From Methanobacteriota archaeon (GTDB taxonomy: Archaea > Thermoplasmatota > Poseidoniia > MGIII > CG-Epi1), in the NCBI GenBank assembly GCA_002687355.1, contig NYZZ01000041.1:38156-102155 (forward strand): 64,000 bases of DNA, in the 5' to 3' direction. The first letter of the stretch is position 1. Each line of letters begins with the position of its first letter. A program made the translations under genes and the position numbers. This document shows, in pieces, positions 2,902 through 38,763 of the stretch. The notes under the pieces are model-generated. The model ran no database searches. It was not told the origin of the DNA and worked only from the letters and a program-made list of their open reading frames with translations.

Positions 2902-3439
2902 GCATCACTTCCTTCGAGACGAGATAGATGCCGTCCTGGAAGACGCGGATGTCGCGTCCTTTAACGATAGTAGCGCGCTCCAGATTGGCTGCAGTCTGGC
3001 CAACTCCTTCGCGGTCGTTGCCTTCAATGGTAACAGAGCTGCCCTTAGCGATTACTTTGGTGTCACCAACGACGGTAGCGTGACGACTCGCCTTCTCCCC
3101 TAGAAAATTATCAATAACGACGTAGTCATTTTTGACGGAAATTTTCATTGGGAAGTGCGCGAAGACCACCTTCATTTGATAGCGGAAACCAAACGCAACG
3201 CCGTTGACCATGTTAGCCAGATGCGCGCGCCACGTTCCGAGCAATGCCTTCTGCCGCTTCCGCAGCTTCTTCCCCGAAACGATTATTGCACTATCACCCG
3301 ACTGGACTCCAAGTTGCGGATGGCTGAAGCTGCGTTCCAGTTGTCCGCGTGGTCCCTCGACCACTAGCGTCTCCCCATCGTAGCTGGCGCTGACGCCCTC
3401 TGGCAGCGGGATAGTATGCGTCAGCTCTTCAATAAGCAT
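2891..3439 (-). CDS. rpl6: 50S ribosomal protein uL6
   Basis: 182 aa, L6-like sequence, in the conserved S8-L6-L32e order. Confidence 0.85.
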   Translation of the reverse strand: MLIEELTHTIPLPEGVSASYDGETLVVEGPRGQLERSFSHPQLGVQSGDSAIIVSGKKLRKRQKALLGTWRAHLANMVNGVAFGFRYQMKVVFAHFPMKISVKNDYVVIDNFLGEKASRHATVVGDTKVIAKGSSVTIEGNDREGVGQTAANLERATIVKGRDIRVFQDGIYLVSKEVMHDA

Positions 3440-3967: not shown

Positions 3968-4473
3968 GCGACAACCTCTAGTTTGAAGTTCTGGCGCATG
4001 TATTCTTGACATTCCTCACGGGTGAGTCGATGGCGCGCGCCAACCTTGCGGCTGGCCACTTTGCGCCGCGCGACGCGGTAGCCGCGGCGCTCGAAAGCCA
4101 CAGCAACGTCCAACCCGAAGATGCCAATATCAGGATCATATTTTTCATCGGCAAAGCCGGTATAATCAGGAATGCCAAAGTTCAGTCCACCAGTGGCGGA
4201 GAAGCAGTAGGCGGGGAGCCGGCTCTCACGCACCCAGAGAGCATTCTTCAGGACGCGGCGCGCATTCTCACCGCGCAACGTCACTTTGCAGCCGATAGGC
4301 ATTCCCTTGCGCAGCCCCAGATCACGATTGGTCGTACGAGAGAGCGTGCGCACTGGCTGGCAGCCGGTCAGCTTTTGCAGCACCGTTTCCGCATTAGAGA
4401 GCCGGTCGCCCGCCTCGCCAACACCAATGTTCAGGACGACCTTGGCAATCCGTAGCTCGCGCATCGTGTTCAT
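3964..4473 (-). CDS. rpl5: 50S ribosomal protein uL5
   Basis: 169 aa, L5-like, in the conserved S4e-L5-S14 order. Confidence 0.9.
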
Positions 4474-5165
4474 ACCGCCACCTCTTCTACCAGCGCTTTT
4501 TTAGCACCAACGACGAACGCGTACTGTTTCAGCGTCTCAAACTCCGCGAAGCGAACGACGTTGGGTCGCGGGCTCCGCGTCTCCACCGCCTCTTCCAGCA
4601 ACGCAATTGTGCCGACGTGCGCCCCACCAGTCACCAGCGCCGGAGCACCTTTGCTGAACTTGAGTATTTTCTTCACATTGAGTCCCGGCAATGCCAGCTG
4701 TAGCACGTCGCCCGTGTTCACTTCCTTGTCAGAGAGCAGGTTGCTGCCGTCATGCAGGTTGAGTTGCGTCTTCCCACCACGCAGTGTTGTCTTGCCTTCG
4801 ATGCGCAGTAATTTCCATTTCGCCGCGACACCCTTGATTTCAGAGAAGTGCAGCCGGCCGTGATGATCGAGTAGACAACGGAAATTGGCCTTGATAGCAG
4901 GAAGTGAGATTACATCCATTAGCCCTATCCCTCGTTTTGGGTCGCGCACGACGCGCTGGTCGAGTAGTACGTCGCCGTTACCTAGAATGCGGCGTGCTTC
5001 TCGCGCAGTATCACAGACATGCAGGTAGTCGCGTAGCACCATCGCCAGTGGGACGCTGCCCTCGAGTGAGTGCGGTCCTGGCTTCGGCTTAGTAGCCCAG
5101 AAATGTGCCTTGCGACCGACGTTCCACGAACGCGGGACAGTGATGCGTTTTAGGTGATCGCTCAC
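4470..5165 (-). CDS. rps4e: 30S ribosomal protein eS4
   Basis: 231 aa, S4e-like (KRITVPRSW...), conserved position. Confidence 0.9.
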   Translation of the reverse strand: MSDHLKRITVPRSWNVGRKAHFWATKPKPGPHSLEGSVPLAMVLRDYLHVCDTAREARRILGNGDVLLDQRVVRDPKRGIGLMDVISLPAIKANFRCLLDHHGRLHFSEIKGVAAKWKLLRIEGKTTLRGGKTQLNLHDGSNLLSDKEVNTGDVLQLALPGLNVKKILKFSKGAPALVTGGAHVGTIALLEEAVETRSPRPNVVRFAEFETLKQYAFVVGAKKALVEEVAV

Positions 5166-5788
5166 TCGCTTTCCTCCAGCCGCGCTACCAACTCTGCTTT
5201 TTTGCCCGAAATCGGCAGGCCGCGCTCCTTCAATTCCCCCTTCAGCTCGGAGACGGTGAGTGCACTCCAGTCGCGCACATCATCCTTGCCAGAATCGCCC
5301 TCCGTGTCGGCTTCTGCATCAACTTCGCGTGGGTCGACGCCGGTAACTTCGGCTTCGTACTCATCTTCGGCAGCTTCCAATTCGGCCACAGTTTCATCAG
5401 TCCACTCGACTCCTTCGTTTGCACGGTCTAGAATGCGCCTGCGGCGTACGTCAGACCAGTCAGGGTTGATGACTACTAGGTTGGACGGATCAATCGGCCG
5501 TTGTAGTTCAGTCCCATCAGACTTGTGATAGGTAAAGCCGTCGACGTAAATCTTGCGCGCACGACGATCTACCTGCGAGATGCGGTGCCCCTCACTACCA
5601 CGCCCCTCGCCGCGCACAATAAGCACACGATCGCCGGTCCGCACCGGAATCGAACGGGGATAGATGTAGCCGCGCTCTTCCTGCCGGCGGCGCAGCCCCC
5701 GGTCTAGCGGGGCCGCCATTTCGCGGTGCCGCCGGTGGAGCGGCGCCGTGTGGCGGGCGAGTCTCTGTTTGCGCGGTTGTTTACTCAT
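5162..5788 (-). CDS. rpl24: 50S ribosomal protein uL24 fused to a C-terminal acidic linker and a SAP motif
   Basis: Canonical L24 start [20 protein letters not shown] and a KOW region. This is followed by an acidic ~70-aa linker and a terminal [30 protein letters not shown], which is a perfect SAP consensus. Start chosen at the Met abutting the L14 stop. Confidence 0.85.
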
Positions 5789-6183
5789 ACTATTGTGGAT
5801 GCCGTAGCGGCAATGCGCGGCCATCTCTCGGCCGCCTCGCGGGCGACGGGTCCCTTGATTCCGGAGCCCCGTGTCTCGCCTAACTCGTTGGTCAGCACGA
5901 CGGCGTTATCTTCGAATTTCACCATAGTCCCGTCAGCGCGACGGTGTGGTCGCCGACTACGCACAATGACTGCGCGTACCAGCTGTCGCCGCATTTCGGG
6001 CGTGCCCTTCTTGACCGATGCGATGACCATATCTCCGACGCCAGCAGCAGGTGACCGGCGGTGAACGCCCTTGTAGTTCAGGACCGTCACAATTTCGACC
6101 ACCTTGGCGCCGCTATTGTCGACGCATTCAATCCGCGCTCCCTGCGGAAGTCCGCGCATCTGCCGACCGGCGACAGCCCTCAT
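5785..6183 (-). CDS. rpl14: 50S ribosomal protein uL14
   Basis: L14 core ([10 protein letters not shown]...). Start set at MRAVAG, abutting the S17 stop; the ORF is open to 6237. Confidence 0.85.
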
Positions 6184-6521
6184 GCCCCCCTCCGTTCGAT
6201 AATTACGAATGACTTGGTTTTTGAGAGTGGGCGACACTCCATGATTGTAACGTTGTCGCCCTCCCGCGCGCCGACGCTTGCCGGCGAATGCGCCTGGATA
6301 CGCGACGAACGGCGCTGATAGCGCTCGTATTTTGAATCATATTTCATGCGTTCAATTTTGACCACTGCAGTGCGTTGCGCCCGGGCACGGACGACAATAC
6401 CCTGTAACAGCTGCCCTCGCACGGGGAGCGAACCATAGAACGGGTCGTGGGGGTCACCGTCCCATTTGTGTGCGGGTGGCTGCACCTCAACACCAATATC
6501 CCGAGGTTTTGTCACGCGCAC
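6180..6521 (-). CDS. rps17: 30S ribosomal protein uS17
   Basis: 113 aa, S17-like, in the conserved position. Confidence 0.85.
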
Positions 6522-7047: not shown

Positions 7048-7246
7048 ACTGTTCTCCTAGTTCGCGCATAATCGTCTGTAGTCGCGCTACCTGCCTGCGT
7101 AGCGAGCGCATCTTGCCCGGCGACGCTGGCTGACCCCCCATCGATGCGATGCCCCGCTCGTGCATCAACTCACTGCGCAGCTCACCCAGACGGGCAATCC
7201 GTTCTTCCGGTGCCAGCTCGCGCAGGGCATTTGCCTTAGGGCTCAT
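7040..7246 (-). CDS. rpl29: 50S ribosomal protein uL29
   Basis: 68 aa helical protein at the S3/SUI1 junction. Confidence 0.8.
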   Translation of the reverse strand: MSPKANALRELAPEERIARLGELRSELMHERGIASMGGQPASPGKMRSLRRQVARLQTIMRELGEQYG

Positions 7247-8079
7247 TTAGAATCCTCCACCTTAGCTTCGGGCTGGGTCACTTCTTTGGGCGCTTCAGCC
7301 GCGTCCACCGTTTTGCCCTTAGCCGATGTTTTTGCAGCCCCTTCACTCGCATCAGCATCCGGCTTCACCTCTTCCTCAGGAATGGATTTTGCCACGCTCG
7401 CCTGCTTATCATTAGCGGGAGCAGTTTCCTCCTCCTCCGTGACAGCATCTCCTTCTTCATTTGCGGATGGCTGCTCCACGACGGCCGGCGCGACGTCGAT
7501 TTCGTCGGGCAGTTTGGCGTCGGGCGGCATGATGACAACCTTGACGCCGATAGTACCTGGCTTCAGCTTGGCTTGCGAGTATCCGACCTGCATTAGCTGC
7601 AGCGCGGGCTCGCCGCAATGCTTGATGTGACCCTCGATGAACTTCTCAGTGCGGTGGCGCAACCCAGTTAGCTTGCCTGCAATCGTAATTTGGCAGCCTC
7701 GCGCACCGGCCCCCATGATGCGCTGTAGCATTGAGTTGCCAGCGCGGCGGTAGTTCCAGCCCCGCTCCAGTGCATTAGTGACCTTGGACGCCATTACATC
7801 GGGATTAAGCGCCCAGTTTTCGACGTCGCCCGCCTCGACTTGCAGGTTCTCGTAGCCGAAAGTGCGTTCCAGTTCTTCAGTCAGGCGATTGATGTCGGCG
7901 CCCTTGCGGCCGATGACGATGCCGGGCCGCTCGGCCAAGATGCGCACGTGCGTCCCAAGCGGGGTGCGCTGGATACTCAGTCCGCCGAAGCCAGCGCGGT
8001 CGACCTCCTTGCGGACGAACTCGTGGACTAGCATACGACGTACGCGTTCCTCAACCATCTCGCGCGCTATGGTCGTCAC
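7243..8079 (-). CDS. rps3: 30S ribosomal protein uS3 with acidic low-complexity C-terminal tail
   Basis: KH/S3 core, followed by an ~80-aa Glu/Ala/Lys-rich tail. Confidence 0.9.
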   Translation of the reverse strand: MTTIAREMVEERVRRMLVHEFVRKEVDRAGFGGLSIQRTPLGTHVRILAERPGIVIGRKGADINRLTEELERTFGYENLQVEAGDVENWALNPDVMASKVTNALERGWNYRRAGNSMLQRIMGAGARGCQITIAGKLTGLRHRTEKFIEGHIKHCGEPALQLMQVGYSQAKLKPGTIGVKVVIMPPDAKLPDEIDVAPAVVEQPSANEEGDAVTEEEETAPANDKQASVAKSIPEEEVKPDADASEGAAKTSAKGKTVDAAEAPKEVTQPEAKVEDSK

Positions 8080-16500: not shown

Positions 16501-19500
16501 CTATTCGCGTAGGACGAATTGCGACTGGCAATGAGGGCAGCCAACTTGGATGGGGCGCTGCGGTGTGTGGACTGCAAGAGTGCTGTTACATGATGGGCAC
16601 GCCAGCTCGAGCGGACCGTCCACAGTGTCGTCAAACTCTGCTTCGCCACCGTCGCCGCGCAACCACCCTATCCCCATCGCACCACCTGCCAGCAGTACCG
16701 TTCCGAGCAGTACCAATCCTAGCAGTTTCATCAAGTCCAATCCTCCCTCGTCGCCGTCGTCAGTAGTAGTTACGGCCGCCTTGACCGTCACCTGCACCTC
16801 ATTGCTCCCGGTTCTTTCGCCGCGCTCATCTTCGACCCACACCGCTGCGGTGTAGGTGCCGGGGGTGTTGAACACCTTGCTGAAGCTGCTCTTGTCATAG
16901 TCGTTAAGCAGGTTTACCTCACGACCCATTGGATCTGTCACGGTCCAGTCAAAGCTCAGCGCCGTATTGTCTCCGTCCGGGTCACTTGACTCAGCCGCCG
17001 AGAAAGTGACCGCCTCGCCGGTCTGCACCTCAATCCCGGTATCTGATGTTATAGGATTCCCCTGAACGAAGACCGTCACTCTCGCCATTGCTAGTGGTGG
17101 TTGGTTAGTGGCTCGCGTGACCGTTACGTAGAATGGGTCTGATGGTGCGCTAGTGAGCAGGTCGTCATCACCCAGCCCCGATGATAATTCACGCACGATA
17201 AGTTTTGCTTGATAGGTAATCTGATTGTTACCGGCTGGCAGGGTGTAGTTGTAGCCGTTACCAGTCAGGCCGGAGTTATCAACCTCCAGGAACTGCCCGT
17301 TGACCAGCTTGAAGACCCAGTCACCGCTACCGACGGACTTGCGAACTAAATCTCCGCTATCTAAATCACCGTCTGGGTTGAAGATTGGGTTGCGGTAGAG
17401 CAGTGTTACTCCCCCATCCTCCAGCCAGTCACTATAGATCCCATCGCCCAAAATGAGTCGGTACTCCAAATCAGCCCGGTCGTCCGGGTCGTACGAGGTG
17501 GAGAAGTCAAAGGTAACATACTCGCCCAGTGCGACAGACGTAGTGTTGCCGTTCAGCATCGCTATCGGTTGGCTGTTGGCCTTTACTGTCAGCGAGAGTA
17601 CGACTTCTTCTGACGGCAGATTCCTGCTATCGCGTACCTGAACCCGTATTAGGTATTCACCTGGATTGGTGAATTCAATATCTTCATCCCAGTCATTGCG
17701 CCAGGAGGTCCACCCCCCCGCGTAGAAGCGGTACTGCAGGTTAGGCACTTCGTCATCGGCATCCGCCATACCGTCGGTGGTTTCGTTGTCCCACGAGCCT
17801 CTGGCATCAACCCTCACCTTCTCATTGACCCACACCGTCGCGGTATCGAGTGTGGCGACCGCGTGCGGTGCATCGTTGGGCACTCCGTCCACATTTAAGG
17901 TAGTGAAGTCGGCGTTGTTGCTCTTGCGCGTCTCCTGACTAGAAAGGTCAATAACCTCAGCATACACTTCGTGGTAGCCTGGATCCAGATCCAGGTAGCC
18001 CCAGCCCAGTTCTAGGCTCAGCTCGGCCCCTGACGCGAGTGCCTGGCAGCCGTCTGGTTGGTTTGGCTCACTAACGCGACACGTGAACTCGCGCACCTCA
18101 TTCGACGAGCGTGGTTCCCCATCATAGATAGTAAGTCGCCATTCCGAAGTCGCGGCACCGCCCACGTTGCGGAAGGTGACGTTCACTTGCAAGTCATTGT
18201 CTTCGTTGGGCTGGTCGCTCTCGGCTGGTGCCGGCTCTTCACCGCCGACTCCGCTCCAGCTAATGGCGATATCGTCGCCCACCACCACCAAATCGGGGGT
18301 ACTGGTCTGTCCCACAGAGGTCATGACCCACAGGTAGACATTGCTTCCTGTGATGATTTCAGGGACTCCATCATTTTGTAGGTCAGCTATCTCCAATCCC
18401 CCATAGTGGGCGGTCATCCCGGAGAGTGAGCTAGTATGGGCTTCGTAATCCCGGGTCTCGCCATCGTAAACCCAGAGTTGGCCGCCATTGGTGCCCCACG
18501 CAATCTCGGAATGAGTATCATTGTCGAAGTCCCCACCGGCAATACCCCAGACGGAACCATAGTCAACTTCGCGGCTCCACTCCAGTGCGCGGCTCTCGCC
18601 GTTGTAAATGATAACGCGTGCCTTTTCGTCACCTTTCTTAGCGGTGCCAACTAGGATTTCGTTGCCTCCATCGTCATCCACATCAGTCAGGGCCAATCCA
18701 TACGCCTCACTCCGGTCAGTATCGATGATGTCCCCGTCGAGTTCATAGCTGCCGCCACTGGCGTGGTAGACTCGCACACTCCCCGACGCGGTGCCCGCTA
18801 CCAGTTCGTTCTGCGCGTCGTCATCGGCATTGCCGGTCGCCAGCCCCACTACGACTTCTTCTAGGTCGCCGCTGCCCCACTCCTCGCCGTAGCTGCTGCC
18901 GTCATAGCCGAATACCCGCACTTCACCATGTGGGTATGGAGTCACGGTGCTTCCTGACAGGACATACTCAATGTAGCCGGTGGCAACGCCGATTTCAGGG
19001 TAAGTAGAGCCGTCCAACTCCGTCACTGACAACCCCAGTGCCGAGTCGATGTTGTCGCTCTGGTAGCTCTGGGTAAAGCTATTGCCAGAGCGGTCGAAGA
19101 TGTAGAGATAACCTTCGCTTCCCTCACCATCCACGCGTCCTTCGTCAGGGGCACCGGTGCTGATTACAATTTCCACATCATTATCGTTGTCCACGTCCGC
19201 CACCACGATACCAACAGGCAGCTTCTCCATTACAGGGCTGACCCAGTCCACGACGTGCGTTTCACCGTCAAAGGCAACAACCTGTCCTGAGCCGCAGCCG
19301 ACCAGTACTTCCAGTGCCGGGTCATCATCAATATCGCCAGCAGCGACCCCCCAGGTCTGTCCGCCTCGCAAGCTGTAGACCGGGCTCCACTCACCCTGCT
19401 GGGGCTCGGTGCTCCAGACTAGTTGCGGGTCGTTGTTACCATCAATTTCCCACGCCTTCAGGACGCCATCATCACCACCGTGGATGACCCACGGTTTGGT

Positions 19501-20649
19501 ATGCATTAGGGAGACCGTAACGCCAGCTCCATTGCTCATCGATTCGCCGCTGTCCCACTCCAGTCGGGTCAGCAGCGAGGAGCCGCTAAGTTCTAGCACA
19601 TACAAGTCACCGTTTCCGACGGCGACCACTAACTCCGGGTTGTCGTTGCTGAAGCCGAGGTCAACTGCTTCTAGCCCGTACGCCGCCTTCAGATCGGTTC
19701 GCTGTACCTCTGGATGGCCGTCTAATAATTCCCCATCACGAAACACAGCTAACTTGTCAGCGCATCCAACGACTAGCTCGTCAATGCCACTGCCGTCTAG
19801 ATCGGCCGCCAGCAGGCCGTAGCAGTAACCGTCTAACGACTCGCCACCGAATTTGTAGCGCCATTGCCGGTCACCAGTTTGCCCATCGAAGACGCCGACC
19901 CAGCCCTGCTTGGTGCCAACCGCGATTTCTAGCGCGGGATCGCTGTCGAGCTGCCCCATCGTGATGCCCCAGACGTTCTCAATCTGCTGGTTATTGAAGT
20001 CCTCTTGCAGGTCTCGGTTCCACTCTGCTTCATCTGGGAAGACTTCTTTGTCCTCGTAAATCTCGGGAGTTACCGCGTCAACGACCCACAGACGCCCCAA
20101 ATCGGCCCCCACAGCCAGCTCAGGGCGACCATCACCATCCAGGTCGCCTGCTGCCAGCCCGAACGGTTCCATCTCCGCGTCGGTGGGGTTGTAGCCGTTG
20201 GACCAAGCGATACCACCAGATGTCCAGTTCTCCTCCGACCGCAGTAGTACTCCGTCCAGAATGCCAACCTTGCCACCAGCCGACCACCTGTAGCCGTATG
20301 CAATCTCTAATGGATCATCATCATCCAGCTGGTCGACGATTAGTCCCCTGACGCTGCTTCCTAGGTCGACCGAGTGCAGCTGACTGCTGTATTTGCTATG
20401 AGTTGCGTTCCAGTCGAGCACGTGCAGATATCCCTGTGCGTTGCCGGCCACTAGCTCGTCGTCACCATCACCATCAATGTCGGCTGCCACGATGGAGTCC
20501 AGTGCCCCCAGCGCGGTGCCCAGCCCGGCACTCCACTGCTCGCTCAGATAGCCGCGATTGGTGTCCGAACGTGCGTCATTCCCCGCCTCGGCGGGCGGAA
20601 ACGTCGGAAGCAGTGTTAGGACAAGCAGAATCGCCAGCAGGCGTCGCAT
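16501..20649 (-). CDS. giant integrin-like surface protein: signal peptide, ~14 FG-GAP repeats, Ig/PKD-like domains, one TM helix, cytoplasmic zinc-ribbon tail
   Basis: N-terminal signal peptide (MRRLLAILLVLTLLPTFPPAEAG). Recurring DxDGDG..ELxVG motifs, e.g. DIDGDGDDELVAG, DLDGDGRPELAVG, DLDGSGIDELVVG. A C-terminal hydrophobic helix LLGLVLLGTVLLAGGAMGIGWL, then CPSC...CPHC. Confidence 0.8.
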   Translation of the reverse strand: MRRLLAILLVLTLLPTFPPAEAGNDARSDTNRGYLSEQWSAGLGTALGALDSIVAADIDGDGDDELVAGNAQGYLHVLDWNATHSKYSSQLHSVDLGSSVRGLIVDQLDDDDPLEIAYGYRWSAGGKVGILDGVLLRSEENWTSGGIAWSNGYNPTDAEMEPFGLAAGDLDGDGRPELAVGADLGRLWVVDAVTPEIYEDKEVFPDEAEWNRDLQEDFNNQQIENVWGITMGQLDSDPALEIAVGTKQGWVGVFDGQTGDRQWRYKFGGESLDGYCYGLLAADLDGSGIDELVVGCADKLAVFRDGELLDGHPEVQRTDLKAAYGLEAVDLGFSNDNPELVVAVGNGDLYVLELSGSSLLTRLEWDSGESMSNGAGVTVSLMHTKPWVIHGGDDGVLKAWEIDGNNDPQLVWSTEPQQGEWSPVYSLRGGQTWGVAAGDIDDDPALEVLVGCGSGQVVAFDGETHVVDWVSPVMEKLPVGIVVADVDNDNDVEIVISTGAPDEGRVDGEGSEGYLYIFDRSGNSFTQSYQSDNIDSALGLSVTELDGSTYPEIGVATGYIEYVLSGSTVTPYPHGEVRVFGYDGSSYGEEWGSGDLEEVVVGLATGNADDDAQNELVAGTASGSVRVYHASGGSYELDGDIIDTDRSEAYGLALTDVDDDGGNEILVGTAKKGDEKARVIIYNGESRALEWSREVDYGSVWGIAGGDFDNDTHSEIAWGTNGGQLWVYDGETRDYEAHTSSLSGMTAHYGGLEIADLQNDGVPEIITGSNVYLWVMTSVGQTSTPDLVVVGDDIAISWSGVGGEEPAPAESDQPNEDNDLQVNVTFRNVGGAATSEWRLTIYDGEPRSSNEVREFTCRVSEPNQPDGCQALASGAELSLELGWGYLDLDPGYHEVYAEVIDLSSQETRKSNNADFTTLNVDGVPNDAPHAVATLDTATVWVNEKVRVDARGSWDNETTDGMADADDEVPNLQYRFYAGGWTSWRNDWDEDIEFTNPGEYLIRVQVRDSRNLPSEEVVLSLTVKANSQPIAMLNGNTTSVALGEYVTFDFSTSYDPDDRADLEYRLILGDGIYSDWLEDGGVTLLYRNPIFNPDGDLDSGDLVRKSVGSGDWVFKLVNGQFLEVDNSGLTGNGYNYTLPAGNNQITYQAKLIVRELSSGLGDDDLLTSAPSDPFYVTVTRATNQPPLAMARVTVFVQGNPITSDTGIEVQTGEAVTFSAAESSDPDGDNTALSFDWTVTDPMGREVNLLNDYDKSSFSKVFNTPGTYTAAVWVEDERGERTGSNEVQVTVKAAVTTTDDGDEGGLDLMKLLGLVLLGTVLLAGGAMGIGWLRGDGGEAEFDDTVDGPLELACPSCNSTLAVHTPQRPIQVGCPHCQSQFVLRE

Positions 20650-36202: not shown

Positions 36203-36496
36203 TCAAAGTGTTGCGCACAGCCCCAGAATTTCGGAGTTGCCACCGTCCAAGATGGTCACGGCTGAAATTCCAAATGGTTTGCCGCATGCTATACCTAAGT
36301 CGGCATTAGTACCATCGAAATGGTATACAGGCACCTCGCCCCGTTCGATATCCTCGACAGCTGCTGCAGGGCAGTTGCGAGCCAGTAGCACAAGCTTCGC
36401 CTTACCTGCAGCAACAGCTTCACGACATTGGCTAGTGCCGAGTTGCACGTTGCCAGTGCCGATAGCACTGCGCAGCTCGCGGTTAATGTCCATCAA
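36203..36496 (-). CDS. rpl30e: 50S ribosomal protein eL30
   Basis: [13 protein letters not shown]...[30 protein letters not shown] is the L30e signature. Canonical position downstream of rpoA2. Confidence 0.8.
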
Positions 36497-38763
36497 GTCT
36501 CACTGGAAGGATTGTAGATAACGCTCACGGCACCGGTACCTAGATGCACTGGCTGGCCAACAATAATATTCTCAGCGACGCCGGTTAGCACATCCTCTTC
36601 ACCAGTCAGCCCGGCCAGCAGCAGGTGAGTGGAGGTAATCTCGAACGCTGCTCGCGCCAGGACAGAGGTTTTCGCCCCTGAAATGCCGTGGCGACCGATA
36701 GCGCGTATGTTGCCGTTGTTGGTCATTACGTCAGCCACCAGCAGATTGTGGCGCATATCGACTACAAGCCCCTGCTCTTCCAGCGTTTCGTTCAGTTCGT
36801 AGGCAATTGCGGTCCGCGTCGCCTCGACGCCAAGCACCGCGCGTATTTCATGCAGTGAGTTGGTGGAGGTTCGGGCTAGGTCGACTCGCTCCATTTCCAG
36901 TATTTCCTTCAAGTTGGACCCTTCGGTGAAGATAATGTACTCGTCCTTTTCCTTGCGCACAATGGCGCGGGCGATAGAGGTGATACCGTCTACTTTCGCC
37001 CGCCGCACCTTTTCCTCCAAGACGTAGAGTTTCTTGAACGACGGCTCAGGTTCCGACATAACAATAGAGTCGCCTTCGATGGTGATATCGCACCGCAGGC
37101 GGGCAGATTTGCGGATGCGCGCCCCGAAGTCGGTGAGCGTGATACCACGCTTCTTCAGCTCCTTCATGTTTGGTTCAACCACCAGTCTCAGGTTGGTCAT
37201 GTCGGTACGGATGTCAGCTAGGCTACCCGCCGAGCGCGACTCGATGCGTGACGCTAAGTCGAGCGCCGCTTCACGGTCAGTTGCGTGCTGCGGTTCGAGG
37301 AAAACTTCCATAATTGGAGTTTTTGGCTCTCGTCTTGCATCGACAATCTCGATTAGCCTCGGCAGCCCTAGCGTCACGTTCATCTCTGCCACGCCAGCAT
37401 AGTGGAAGGTGCGCATGGTCATCTGCGTCCCCGGCTCGCCGATAGACTGCGCGGCAATGATGCCGACCGCCTCTGTAGCATCGACACTTGATAGAGTGCA
37501 CTGCTCAACCGCTCGCTGAGTGATTTCGCTGAATTGCTTCGCCGAGAGTTTGCGTCCGACACTTCGCTTCGCTAGTTGGCGCACAATACCATGCGGCAGC
37601 GTGGCGCCTTGCTTTTCTAGAGCTTTCTGCAGCTTTGTTTCAGTTGCGACCAGTTCTTCGTAATAGGCTACCAGTTCTCCGATCGCTTTTTGCTTGAGCC
37701 TTTCGCGCTCAGTTTTCATCACAATTTCCTTGCGGTAGTGCTCCGGCAGTTTTCCCGTCAGTTTTAGTGCCCGGGTACGGAAGGGGTTGAGCTTTCGTTT
37801 AACAACATCATCGGCCAGCGTCTCGACTAATTTCGTTTTATCAATGGGAGAGGGCTGCACCAGTTCCTGCGCGGCAGCCGCCTCGGCCACCCTGCGGAAC
37901 TCTTCCAGACGAGTCTGTGGAACCTCGGCTGCTTTCAACTCTATGTCAGTTGCGGCGGCAGCCTGACTCGCGAGATGCAAGCCGGCACCGAATAGCCCCG
38001 CAGCGGTTTTCTCGGAGAAGCCTAGCTCGGTGTAGAGGTTGCGTGATGCGATACGCTCCTGCTCGAATCGCAGTCGATCGCGCTCCAAGTCGAAAGTGTC
38101 CTCAATCTGGGTGTAGTTGCGCGCCGATCGTACTGGCTTACCATCCATCTTCTGGAATTCATTCAATCGCAGCGTACGCGGCAGCTCGACCAGCCGTGCA
38201 ACGCGTAAGAAAGTGACGTAAGGCTCCTGCATATGCTGCGGTAGCAACGCTTTTGCCTCATCTGGAATATTAGGTCGGTCGAACGAAACCACCTCCGAGA
38301 TAACAGATAGAAAGCGGATACCGTGCGCTTCCTTTAGATAGATATAGCCGCTAAAGGGTGGTCGGAATTGTTTGGCATTGACTGGGAATGCGACTCCCAC
38401 CAGAGTCTCACCGCGCCGACCCATATGCTCGCGAATCTCATCAATAGTATATCCTTCTGGCAGTGACCAGATTACACCCAGCTTCTTTTCGACCCTCCGC
38501 AGCGCGGCTTCGGCTGAGACTACCCCTTCGCCAGTAGCCTCTTCTTCCTGTGCGCCAGCGATGACCGCCTCGCGATCAACTTGCCGGTTGCCCACAGATT
38601 CGACTAGTTCTAGGATTTCGCGGAAATGGAATTGCTTGCACAAATCTTCCAAGCTCGCTTTCTTGAGCGACCCGAGCTGATATCCGGCGTCGACTGCCTT
38701 CTCGGCTAGCGCCAGCGTCATACCGCGCCGCTCGAGCGCCCGAATGGTGTCGAAACGGGCCAT
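36493..38763 (-). CDS. rpoA2: DNA-directed RNA polymerase subunit A'' with ~340-aa N-terminal extension
   Basis: Canonical A'' begins around residue 340 (…[27 protein letters not shown]…) and runs to the end. The N-terminal 340 aa are extra, with HhH-like segments ([27 protein letters not shown]; [21 protein letters not shown]). ATGA overlap with the rpoA1 stop. Confidence 0.85.

What the first reader, a model, noticed from the sequence alone, without database searches (positions are those of the whole stretch)
5165..5269. Ribosomal protein uL24 fused to a C-terminal SAP DNA/RNA-binding motif
After the conserved L24 KOW core there is an acidic ~70-aa linker and then [30 protein letters not shown]. 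This matches the SAP consensus (L..L.V.ELR.EL..RGL...G.K..LI.RL) essentially residue for residue. SAP motifs are mainly eukaryotic nuclear-matrix and DNA-binding modules. A SAP-tailed ribosomal protein in an archaeon would be unusual, and it lies at the polypeptide exit-tunnel protein uL24.
Basis: seen in the sequence. Interest (0 to 1): 0.55.

Follow-up and report, generated by a model that had tools for sequence, protein, structure and literature searches.

The report
Archaeal ribosomal protein uL24 with SAP tail
A marine planktonic archaeon's ribosomal protein uL24, which sits beside the ribosome's peptide exit tunnel, really does carry a conserved acidic arm ending in a SAP nucleic-acid-binding domain; the whole lineage keeps this tail under selection, and its function has not been tested.

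Summary
Window 5162..5788 (-) is the uL24 gene of the spc ribosomal operon. It overlaps uL14 (ATGA) and eS4 (GTGA). The organism is a Candidatus Poseidoniia archaeon, most likely Marine Group III.

The 208-aa protein has four parts:
- a KOW/uL24 core (aa 1-123; TIGR01080, 100.6 bits);
- a conserved acidic helix (aa 124-150);
- a variable acidic spacer (aa 151-173);
- a SAP domain (aa 174-206; Pfam PF02037, 55.2 bits against a cutoff of 23.9, E 4.7e-15).

It is not an artefact. All 120 listed homologues and all 34 matching GTDB species genomes (GC 37-66%) carry the tail in frame. dN/dS is 0.14-0.18 for SAP, 0.06-0.09 for the acidic helix and 0.39-0.60 for the spacer. Some lineages duplicated the spacer+SAP unit, giving 2-3 copies.

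Among the 98 closest uL24 representatives in 1.84 billion proteins, only this clade has SAP. Solved archaeal uL24 chains are 115-121 aa.

Most likely function (inferred): a flexible tether on the tunnel-exit face that binds double-stranded nucleic acid, probably DNA. RNA binding or modulation of translocon docking are live rivals.

I found no paper describing it. It is a new variant of a known kind, of moderate interest.

The parts
5162..5788 (-). Complete uL24-SAP coding sequence (208 aa plus TGA stop). The start ATG overlaps the uL14 stop (ATGA) and the stop overlaps the eS4 GTG start (GTGA).
   Evidence: junction sequences. P0001 is 100% identical and named '50S ribosomal protein L24 [Candidatus Poseidoniia archaeon]'. 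The 220-aa ORF (from 5824) starts 12 codons upstream of the start shared by the orthologues.
5420..5788 (-). uL24 core, aa 1-123: basic N-terminal arm, KOW beta-barrel and helix 114-124; net charge +15.
   Evidence: PF16906 at 51.1 bits and TIGR01080 at 100.6 bits. Foldseek top hits are archaeal and eukaryotic uL24 chains in solved ribosomes, E 2e-9. dN/dS 0.05-0.065.
5339..5419 (-). Conserved acidic helix, aa 124-150 ([27 protein letters not shown]), net charge -11, with conserved W129, Y144 and an aliphatic or aromatic residue at 137.
   Evidence: Invariant or near-invariant columns N124, E125, W129, T130, D131, E138, A139, E141, D142, E143, Y144, E145, E147. Majority fraction 0.87, equal to the core. 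dN/dS 0.06-0.09. AF2 places a helix at 131-149. A related motif occurs in the SAP-less sister lineage P0131/P0134.
5270..5338 (-). Variable acidic spacer, aa 151-173, predicted disordered.
   Evidence: pLDDT below 50 for aa 157-171. Majority fraction 0.51. dN/dS 0.39-0.60. Across 116 orthologues the length is 14-79 aa (median 28) and the net charge is -3 to -30.
5171..5269 (-). SAP domain, aa 174-206 (helix-extended loop-helix).
   Evidence: PF02037 at 55.2 bits, E 4.7e-15. Direct sequence hits to solved SAP domains MKL1 2kvu, hnRNP-UL1 1zrj and Tho1 1h1j/4uzw. AF2 helices 179-189 and 197-207 at pLDDT about 86. dN/dS 0.14-0.18.
5785..6237 (-). Upstream gene uL14 (context; translationally coupled).
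   Evidence: ORF; the same order uL14-uL24-eS4 is seen in a related locus with Pfam labels; ATGA overlap.
4470..5165 (-). Downstream gene eS4 (context; its start overlaps the uL24 stop).
   Evidence: ORF; operon order; GTGA overlap.

Best explanation
SHOWN. The gene at 5162..5788 (-) is the single uL24 gene of the spc operon of a Poseidoniia archaeon, most likely of the Marine Group III type. It natively encodes a four-part protein:
- an ordinary archaeal uL24 KOW core;
- a strongly conserved acidic helix;
- a fast-evolving acidic disordered spacer;
- a canonical SAP helix-extended-helix domain.

The fusion is fixed across the lineage and held by purifying selection. In some sub-lineages the [spacer+SAP] unit has been tandemly duplicated, giving 2 or 3 SAPs.

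INFERRED, about 40% likely. uL24 sits on the rim of the polypeptide exit tunnel, and its C-terminus points to the solvent and translocon side. The tail would therefore act as a flexible arm, up to about 10 nm long, that lets the large subunit bind double-stranded nucleic acid through SAP with low affinity and in a multivalent way. The most probable partner is chromosomal DNA, which would keep ribosomes or nascent 50S particles close to the nucleoid and to the transcribing genes. The acidic helix and spacer would keep the SAP away from the ribosome's own rRNA and may mask it intramolecularly, acting as a DNA mimic. Extra SAP copies would raise avidity.
For: Identity and reality of the fusion:
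- Pfam SAP at 55.2 bits and TIGR01080 at 100.6 bits.
- Overlapping start and stop codons with uL14 and eS4.
- 120 of 120 homologues and 34 of 34 GTDB species loci carry the tail in frame, across GC 0.37-0.66.

Selection:
- dN/dS is 0.14-0.18 for SAP and 0.06-0.09 for the acidic helix, against 0.39-0.60 for the spacer.

Structure:
- AF2 gives a KOW barrel, helix 131-149, a disordered 150-172, and SAP helices at pLDDT about 86.

Nucleic-acid lead:
- The tail aligns directly to solved SAP domains, including yeast Tho1 (ADYSSLTVVQLKDLL...).
- The Ku70 C-terminal SAP, on a flexible linker, raises DNA affinity (PMC11936186).
- The basic SAP positions K183, K197 and R203 are invariant, and K187 and K196 nearly so.

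Multivalency:
- Independent tandem duplications of spacer+SAP (85 proteins with 1 copy, 34 with 2, 1 with 3) fit avidity-driven binding to a polymer.

Position:
- Eukaryotic uL24/RPL26 lies next to the SEC61 translocon and carries a functional handle at its C-terminus (PMC10937380).
- The Foldseek matches include M. jannaschii ribosome-SecYE-beta and translocon-bound 60S structures.
Against: - No binding experiment exists. The function is inferred from the domain family and its position.
- The SAP core is electrically about neutral (median net charge 0, range -1 to +4) and the whole tail is strongly acidic (median -22). That is unfavourable for unassisted DNA binding.
- SAP domains can also contact RNA (3'hExo SAP on the histone mRNA stem-loop appears among the fold hits) and proteins (PIAS1 SAP region, 1v66).
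- Fold-level support for the isolated SAP is only qualitative (Foldseek E of 0.24 or higher for a 46-aa query).
- The exact position of the C-terminus on this archaeon's ribosome is extrapolated from other species.
- I could not establish whether Marine Group II shares the tail.
Confidence: 0.42

Rival explanations
1. The SAP binds RNA rather than DNA. The partner could be a surface helix of the lineage's own 23S rRNA or pre-rRNA, since uL24 is an early assembly protein that binds domain I. It could also be structured mRNA or another RNA near the exit face. The tail would then be an extra RNA clamp or an assembly aid.
For: - uL24 is an rRNA-binding, assembly-initiating protein (established knowledge).
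- The fold hits to the SAP-only model include the 3'hExo SAP bound to an RNA stem-loop (1zbh, 4qoz, 4l8r).
- Other archaeal uL24 tails found here are classic RNA/DNA-binding add-ons: Lys-rich tails and C2H2 zinc fingers (3 members).
Against: - The Tho1 SAP, the closest solved relative by sequence, did not bind dsRNA (PMC4909252).
- A tether of about 50 residues carrying a net charge of -18 would be repelled by the rRNA surface.
- Variable SAP copy number (1-3) and variable spacer length (14-79 aa) are hard to reconcile with one fixed rRNA docking site.
Confidence: 0.2
2. The tail is a protein-interaction or steric-electrostatic module at the universal docking site of the exit tunnel. It would modulate binding of SecYE-beta, SRP, NAC or the membrane, or recruit a lineage-specific partner. 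It would be a genetically built-in analogue of the UFM1 modification on the C-terminus of eukaryotic uL24.
For: - The eukaryotic uL24 C-terminus (K132/K134) is modified with UFM1 next to SEC61, and that modification releases 60S from the translocon (PMC10937380).
- The conserved amphipathic acidic helix (W129, Y144; dN/dS 0.06-0.09) looks like a docking element. It predates SAP, because the SAP-less P0131/P0134 lineage keeps a similar motif.
- The overall strongly negative charge suits repulsion from anionic membranes or binding to basic proteins.
- The SAP region of PIAS1 binds p53 (1v66).
Against: - No partner has been identified.
- SAP is overwhelmingly a nucleic-acid-binding module (Pfam family description; PMC4909252).
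- Tandem duplication of SAP suggests avidity for a repetitive ligand rather than one specific protein site.
Confidence: 0.18
3. The tail is a neutral, functionless accretion: a domain captured once, possibly from a eukaryote or a virus, and carried along passively.
For: - Archaeal uL24 C-termini carry many kinds of low-complexity tails in different lineages (acidic, Lys-rich), which suggests a permissive site.
- The spacer evolves fast (dN/dS 0.39-0.60).
- SAP motifs about 50% identical exist in marine viral contigs and in diatom proteins, which are possible donors.
Against: - The SAP and the acidic helix are under strong purifying selection (dN/dS 0.14-0.18 and 0.06-0.09).
- They are retained in all 34 species genomes despite a GC shift from 37% to 66%.
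- The unit has been duplicated independently at least twice.
Confidence: 0.05
4. The fusion is an assembly or sequencing artefact: a frameshift or chimera that joins uL24 to a separate SAP ORF.
For: Metagenome assemblies do produce chimeras. One relative (P0123, scaffold L041) is indeed chimeric right after the core.
Against: - The same in-frame architecture appears in hundreds of independent assemblies and single-cell genomes.
- Codon-level purifying selection operates in this frame.
- The overlaps with both neighbouring genes are tight.
- No free-standing SAP ORF lies between uL24 and eS4 in the SAP-less relative.
Confidence: 0.01

Closest known systems
Archaeal/eukaryotic ribosomal protein uL24 (L24P/L26; TIGR01080, PF16906), e.g. 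the P. furiosus, T. kodakarensis and H. marismortui chains
   Same: The N-terminal 123 aa, the KOW fold, the operon position between uL14 and eS4, and 35-42% identity to solved archaeal chains.
   Different: Solved archaeal uL24 chains are 115-121 aa and end where this protein's tail begins. None has an acidic helix or a SAP domain.
Ku70 C-terminal SAP (globular core + flexible linker + terminal SAP)
   Same: The same topology: a structured body, a flexible linker and a C-terminal SAP of about 35 aa that adds DNA affinity (PMC11936186). Ku (1jeq) appears among the fold hits.
   Different: The core is unrelated (Ku beta-barrel versus KOW). Ku is a DNA-end binder, whereas here the body is a ribosomal subunit. 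DNA binding is not demonstrated for this tail.
Tho1 / SARNP (Hcc-1/CIP29) and hnRNP-U / hnRNP-UL1 SAP domains
   Same: These are the best sequence matches among solved structures and include the 'DYSSLTV' lead-in. From my own knowledge, not tested here, hnRNP-U also pairs its SAP with a neighbouring acidic region.
   Different: They are eukaryotic nuclear mRNP and chromatin proteins with an N-terminal SAP, and they are not ribosomal.
Eukaryotic uL24/RPL26 C-terminal extension and its UFMylation
   Same: An extra module attached at the same point (the uL24 C-terminus) beside the tunnel exit and translocon docking site (PMC10937380).
   Different: The eukaryotic extension is a short basic helix that is modified post-translationally with UFM1. 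It has no sequence or fold relation to the acidic helix, spacer and SAP tail.
Other lineage-specific archaeal uL24 tails found here
   Same: C-terminal accretions on the same protein: acidic tails (P0131, P0139, P0142, P0145 'Thermoplasmata archaeon', P0175), Lys-rich tails (P0155, P0189, P0200) and C2H2 zinc fingers (P0183, P0187, P0228).
   Different: None contains SAP. Only P0131/P0134 share the acidic-helix motif.

Membership tests
Ribosomal protein uL24, archaeal/eukaryotic type | Matches the curated equivalog and Pfam models above their cutoffs | tested here: met
   TIGR01080 at 100.6 bits (cutoff 47.65); PF16906 at 51.1 bits (cutoff 28.8).
Ribosomal protein uL24, archaeal/eukaryotic type | Conserved operon position between uL14 and eS4 in the spc cluster | tested here: met
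   The ORF order in the window is uS17-uL14-uL24-eS4-uL5-uS14-uS8 with overlapping stop and start codons. The same order carries Pfam labels in relative L035.
Ribosomal protein uL24, archaeal/eukaryotic type | KOW beta-barrel fold superposable on uL24 in solved ribosomes | tested here: met
   The top 50 Foldseek hits are uL24/L26 chains, with a best E of 2.2e-9 and probability 1.00. The AF2 core has pLDDT of about 70-77.
Ribosomal protein uL24, archaeal/eukaryotic type | Physical incorporation into the 50S subunit next to the exit tunnel | not testable with these tools
   The organism is uncultured and no ribosome structure or proteomics is available here.
SAP domain (PF02037; helix-extended-helix, clan with HeH/LEM/Rho_N) | Profile match above Pfam's gathering score | tested here: met
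   55.2 bits against 23.9, E 4.7e-15, profile positions 2-34 of 37. Orthologues score 47.7-56 bits per copy.
SAP domain (PF02037; helix-extended-helix, clan with HeH/LEM/Rho_N) | Conserved motif positions (hydrophobic L..L.V.EL, basic residue after EL, the G.K turn, and LI.RL) | tested here: met
   Invariant V179, L182, K183, L191, G195, K197, L200, R203 and L204; near-invariant L186, K187, G190, P192, V193, K196 and I201 in 45 orthologues.
SAP domain (PF02037; helix-extended-helix, clan with HeH/LEM/Rho_N) | Two-helix fold joined by an extended loop, similar to solved SAP domains | tested here: inconclusive
   AF2 predicts helices 179-189 and 197-207 at pLDDT about 86. The SAP-only model's top Foldseek hits are SAP domains (1zrj, 4uzw, 1h1j, 2do1, 1v66, 2do5), but E is 0.24 or higher because the query has only 46 residues. 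Sequence-level hits to the same PDB entries are significant for 2kvu (E 4.8e-4) and 1zrj (E 2.9e-3).
SAP domain (PF02037; helix-extended-helix, clan with HeH/LEM/Rho_N) | Binds double-stranded DNA (S/MAR-type) in vitro | not testable with these tools
   This needs EMSA, anisotropy or NMR titration with a recombinant tail.
HeH/LEM (PF12949) or Rho_N (PF07498) as alternative assignments | Profile match above the gathering score | tested here: not met
   HeH scores 14.1 bits against a cutoff of 28.9, and Rho_N is not reported even at E<=1. SAP is clearly the best-fitting member of the clan.

The most novel reading that the evidence does not exclude
The SAP arm physically tethers large ribosomal subunits to chromosomal DNA or to the transcribing locus. 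That would make it a ribosome-borne device for coupling translation (or 50S assembly) to the nucleoid in an archaeal order, built from a domain otherwise typical of eukaryotic chromatin and mRNP proteins, with avidity tuned by copy number (1-3 SAPs). A variant reading is that it is a genetically encoded counterpart of UFM1 on uL24 and controls ribosome-translocon docking.
Probability: 0.25. Interest if true: 0.8.

Novelty: new variant of a known kind. Interest (0 to 1): 0.5.

Why it matters
Ribosomal proteins rarely gain folded, named nucleic-acid-binding domains that stay fixed across a whole order-level lineage. In this case a SAP domain hangs on a flexible acidic arm from the protein that lines the exit-tunnel rim. 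In eukaryotes the C-terminus of that same protein is the regulatory handle for release from the translocon.

If the SAP binds DNA, it would be a direct physical ribosome-to-chromosome link encoded in the ribosome itself. That bears on how transcription, translation and ribosome assembly are organised in space in small planktonic archaea.

If it binds RNA or a docking partner, it would define a new lineage-specific function at the exit site.

It also adds a case to the question of where 'eukaryotic' chromatin modules occur in archaea and their viruses, and how they move between them. The hypothesis can be tested with a recombinant 85-residue peptide, without culturing the organism.

Tried and rejected
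1. A hand-written SAP regex found nothing. I replaced it with an HMM built from the tails and later cross-checked that against Pfam.

2. A broad uL24 alignment (A2) was too diverse for the genome scan. The scan with A1 used the peptide words Y[FH]KSDGTE and EA[AT]ED[ED]YE, so 34 loci is a lower bound, and divergent SAP-uL24 types (P0122, P0321) may have been missed.

3. I tried to find the Marine Group II orthologue, to decide whether SAP is specific to MGIII:
- P0131 and the P0139/P0142/P0145/P0175 group are both rare lineages, so they are not MGII.
- Three cluster look-ups gave names only from other archaea: Desulfurococcales, Hadesarchaea, Methanobrevibacter, Altiarchaeota, Njordarchaeales, Nanosalinarum.
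- The question is unresolved.

4. The multi-SAP proteins that dominated the tail-only hits (P0124 and others) might have been paralogues from the same archaea. I rejected that: one is from the diatom Mayamaea, and the others lie on gene-sparse, eukaryote-like contigs.

5. The 'tail-less' P0123 turned out to be a chimeric scaffold.

6. The Haro-Moreno 2017 MGIII paper (PMC5437922) is not held. The link between the two GC classes and epipelagic versus bathypelagic MGIII therefore rests on my memory only.

7. Literature searches combining SAP with ribosomal protein/archaea, Poseidoniales, uL24, or prokaryotes, and a search on archaeal ribosomal-protein C-terminal extensions and the nucleoid, found no description of this fusion.

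8. A PHROGs scan of the SAP-carrying viral contigs gave only a weak minor-tail-protein hit.
Full report
**1. What is at the coordinates**

The finding's range (5165-5269) lies at the 3' end of a minus-strand ORF. Orthologue alignments place the true start at the ATG at 5788, giving MSKQPRK... (208 aa). That start overlaps the stop of the upstream uL14 gene (ATGA). The TGA stop at 5162-5164 overlaps the GTG start of the downstream eS4 gene (GTGA). The gene sits in a typical archaeal S10/spc ribosomal cluster that fills the first ~11.7 kb of the window: uL3, uL4, uL23 ... uS3, uL29, SUI1, Rpp29, uS17, uL14, uL24, eS4, uL5, uS14, uS8, uL6 ... (Pfam-labelled equivalent).

- Pfam-A reports SAP (PF02037) at aa 174-206 with 55.2 bits (cutoff 23.9), E 4.7e-15. 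It reports Ribosomal_L26 (PF16906) at aa 2-122.
- NCBIfam gives the archaeal/eukaryotic uL24 equivalog TIGR01080 at 100.6 bits.
- Other members of the helix-extended-helix clan fall below their cutoffs (HeH 14.1 bits).
- A SAP profile scanned over all six frames of the window finds only this site (E 1.2e-19; next best E 1.7).
- The tail aligns directly with solved SAP domains: MKL1 2kvu, hnRNP-UL1 1zrj, and yeast Tho1 1h1j/4uzw.

The only corrections are that the 'linker' is about 50 aa rather than about 70, and that it is not uniform.

**3. Anatomy**

Alignment of 18 and then 45 orthologues, charge and conservation statistics and an AlphaFold2 model divide the protein into four parts.

- Core (aa 1-123): net charge +15; KOW barrel and helix 114-124.
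- Acidic helix (aa 124-150): [27 protein letters not shown], net charge -11. It is as conserved as the core (majority fraction 0.87) and has invariant or near-invariant N124, E125, W129, T130, D131, E138, A139, E141-E145 and E147. AF2 predicts a helix at 131-149.
- Spacer (aa 151-173): acidic, poorly conserved (0.51), pLDDT below 50.
- SAP (aa 174-206): helices 179-189 and 197-207 at pLDDT about 86. Invariant positions are V179, L182, K183, L191, G195, K197, L200, R203 and L204.

The full-length model matches uL24 chains of solved archaeal and eukaryotic ribosomes (best E 2.2e-9). All solved archaeal chains are 115-121 aa, so they end where this tail begins. The SAP-only model retrieves almost exclusively SAP domains, but with non-significant E-values because the query is only 46 residues.

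**4. Not an artefact, and under selection**

- The identical protein (P0001) is in NCBI as '50S ribosomal protein L24 [Candidatus Poseidoniia archaeon]'.
- 794 clusters match. All 120 listed, down to 60% identity, carry both PF16906 and PF02037. My own profile finds SAP in every one: 85 with one copy, 34 with two and 1 with three.
- A scan of one genome per GTDB species (185,579 species) returned 34 loci. Every one encodes the tail in frame (32 single, 2 double), although locus GC ranges from 0.37 to 0.66.
- Nei-Gojobori dN/dS within the GC-rich and GC-poor groups is:
  - core: 0.048 and 0.065;
  - acidic helix: 0.062 and 0.090;
  - SAP: 0.183 and 0.137;
  - spacer: 0.394 and 0.599.
- The one apparently tail-less relative (P0123) lies on a 1.7-kb scaffold that switches to unrelated DNA directly after the core, so it is a chimera.
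- In the closest SAP-less lineage the operon runs uL14-uL24-eS4, with no free-standing SAP gene that could have been fused by a frameshift.

**5. How restricted is it?**

An exhaustive HMMER search of 1.84 billion representatives (50%-identity clusters) listed 150 proteins.

- 98 contain a uL24 core. Only P0121, P0122 and two fragments combine it with SAP, both by my profile and by Pfam (4 of 98).
- P0321 is a further divergent uL24-SAP.
- Any protein with both modules would have scored above the list's floor of about 64 bits. Within that limit, the architecture is confined to this clade.
- The next most similar uL24s are ordinary archaeal ones from Desulfurococcales, Hadesarchaea, Methanobrevibacter and Altiarchaeota.
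- Other uL24 representatives have different tails: acidic, Lys-rich, or ending in a C2H2 zinc finger (3 members). The uL24 C-terminus is evidently a permissive accretion site.
- P0131/P0134 keep an acidic 'DEEYDEWE.EEDEFEA' helix without SAP. This suggests a stepwise history of core, then acidic helix, then SAP.

Ten of the 34 genome titles explicitly name Marine Group III (CG-Epi1, MGIII-CG-Epi1-LRMED, A2.5-MGIII-7/-9, AG-343 single cells). One names Thalassarchaeaceae (MGIIb), and one is a mis-binned 'Neomarinimicrobiota' contig. Only 34 species matched, whereas MGII comprises hundreds of species in GTDB (my own knowledge). I therefore think the clade is MGIII-like. I could not identify the MGII orthologue, so this point remains open.

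**6. Copy-number variation**

In the 2- and 3-SAP proteins the repeated unit is [acidic spacer + SAP]. In P0008 it is 58 aa and the copies are nearly identical. The P0010/P0013 lineage has a different spacer sequence, which points to independent duplications. Across 116 orthologues:
- the spacer is 14-79 aa (median 28), with net charge -3 to -30;
- the 33-aa SAP core has net charge -1 to +4 (median 0);
- the whole tail has net charge -13 to -40 (median -22).

**7. Where could the SAP have come from?**

- The tail-only hits in the representative search are 180-1614-aa proteins with 3-7 SAP repeats and no other Pfam domain.
- One of them is from the diatom Mayamaea pseudoterrestris. Two others lie on gene-sparse contigs, one next to a lipoyl synthase with the LIAS_N domain, so they look eukaryotic.
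- Eight IMG/VR viral contigs encode small acidic proteins with one central SAP ([28 protein letters not shown]). That search was seeded on exact peptide words, so part of the identity is by construction. One neighbouring ORF weakly matches a minor tail protein.
- The domain is too short for a reliable phylogeny, so the origin is open.

**8. Mechanism**

Shown: a selected, lineage-wide uL24 tail with a conserved acidic helix, a disordered acidic spacer and 1-3 canonical SAP domains.

Established background:
- uL24 lines the rim of the exit tunnel.
- In eukaryotes its C-terminus (K132/K134) lies next to SEC61, and modifying it with UFM1 releases 60S from the translocon (PMC10937380).
- The Tho1 SAP binds dsDNA but not dsRNA, like other SAP domains (PMC4909252).
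- The Ku70 C-terminal SAP, on a flexible linker, increases DNA affinity (PMC11936186).

Inference (about 0.4): the tail is a flexible arm that gives the large subunit low-affinity, avidity-tunable binding to double-stranded nucleic acid, most likely chromosomal DNA. The acidic segments would keep the SAP off the rRNA and might mask it.

Against this:
- the SAP core is about neutral and the tail is very acidic;
- SAP domains can also bind RNA stem-loops (3'hExo) or proteins (PIAS1).

Rivals: RNA/rRNA binding (0.2), a docking or steric modulator at the exit site, analogous to UFM1 (0.18), a neutral accretion (0.05) and an artefact (0.01).

**9. Novelty and verdict**

Public pipelines already tag these proteins with both Pfam domains. 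Full-text searches found no paper that describes or discusses a SAP-tailed ribosomal protein. Both modules are well known; what is new is their combination, its position on the ribosome, its lineage-wide conservation and its copy-number variation. I therefore rate it a new variant of a known kind. Interest is moderate (0.5): the feature is real, unusual and testable with a small recombinant peptide, but its function is unproven and the organisms are uncultured.

Noticed in passing
window 36493..38763 (-), especially 37702..38763: The RNA polymerase subunit A'' ORF is 756 aa. Rpb1 domain 5 (PF04998) matches only aa 355-701. The first 354 aa, which begin directly at the stop of RpoA', have no Pfam hit even at E<=1. 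This looks like a large lineage-specific N-terminal extension at the A'/A'' split site.
   Followed up: partly
window 7243..8079 (-): uS3 is 278 aa. KH_2 (aa 18-81) and S3_C (aa 101-183) are followed by an A/E/K/P-rich C-terminal tail of about 95 aa with no Pfam match. It is the only other long extension among the roughly 25 ribosomal proteins of the cluster.
   Followed up: partly
proteins P0183, P0187, P0228; P0155, P0189, P0200: Other archaeal uL24 representatives carry different C-terminal add-ons: a C2H2 zinc finger (FKCPVC...H....H; Pfam zf-C2H2 in 3 of 98) or long Lys-rich, histone-H1-like tails. The uL24 C-terminus appears to be a recurrent site for gaining nucleic-acid-binding tails.
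   Followed up: partly
L042-L049 (IMG/VR contigs, match at about 3001-3147 in each locus): A family of small (about 130-160 aa) very acidic viral proteins with one central SAP domain, on contigs of 12-105 kb with GC 0.43-0.47. A neighbouring ORF weakly matches a minor tail protein. It is a possible reservoir or vector of SAP modules in marine prokaryotic viruses.
   Followed up: partly
proteins P0124, P0126, P0129, P0130, P0172, P0207 and others: About 50 representatives of 180-1614 aa consist of 3-7 SAP repeats separated by acidic linkers, with no other Pfam domain. One is from the diatom Mayamaea pseudoterrestris, and others lie on gene-sparse, eukaryote-like contigs.
   Followed up: partly
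L035 3713..4960 (+): In the SAP-less sister lineage (P0131), the uL5 gene of the same operon encodes 415 aa, more than twice the size of the window's 169-aa uL5, which suggests another large ribosomal-protein extension.
   Followed up: no
L041 (ENA scaffold BILL18-1_SAMN07136947_METAG-scaffold_20331), around position 1230: A chimeric scaffold. The uL24 gene breaks off after 'RRRK' and continues into unrelated AT-rich DNA followed by an ABC-transporter ATPase gene, producing a spurious 127-aa 'tail-less' uL24 (P0123).
   Followed up: yes
L014 (PCCQ01000053.1) and L003 (CAUZDT010000002.1): A contig carrying the archaeal uL24-SAP operon is deposited under 'Candidatus Neomarinimicrobiota bacterium NP104', which is probably a mis-binned contig. 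Another is labelled Thalassarchaeaceae although its uL24 is 84% identical to the window's, close to the 89% of L006, the locus labelled MGIII. NCBI taxonomy also files MGIII CG-Epi1 under Thermoprofundales.
   Followed up: no
window 16501..20649 (-): A 1382-aa protein with an N-terminal hydrophobic, signal-like segment and FG-GAP and PKD repeats, ending in a CxxC...CxxC zinc-ribbon-like motif.
   Followed up: no
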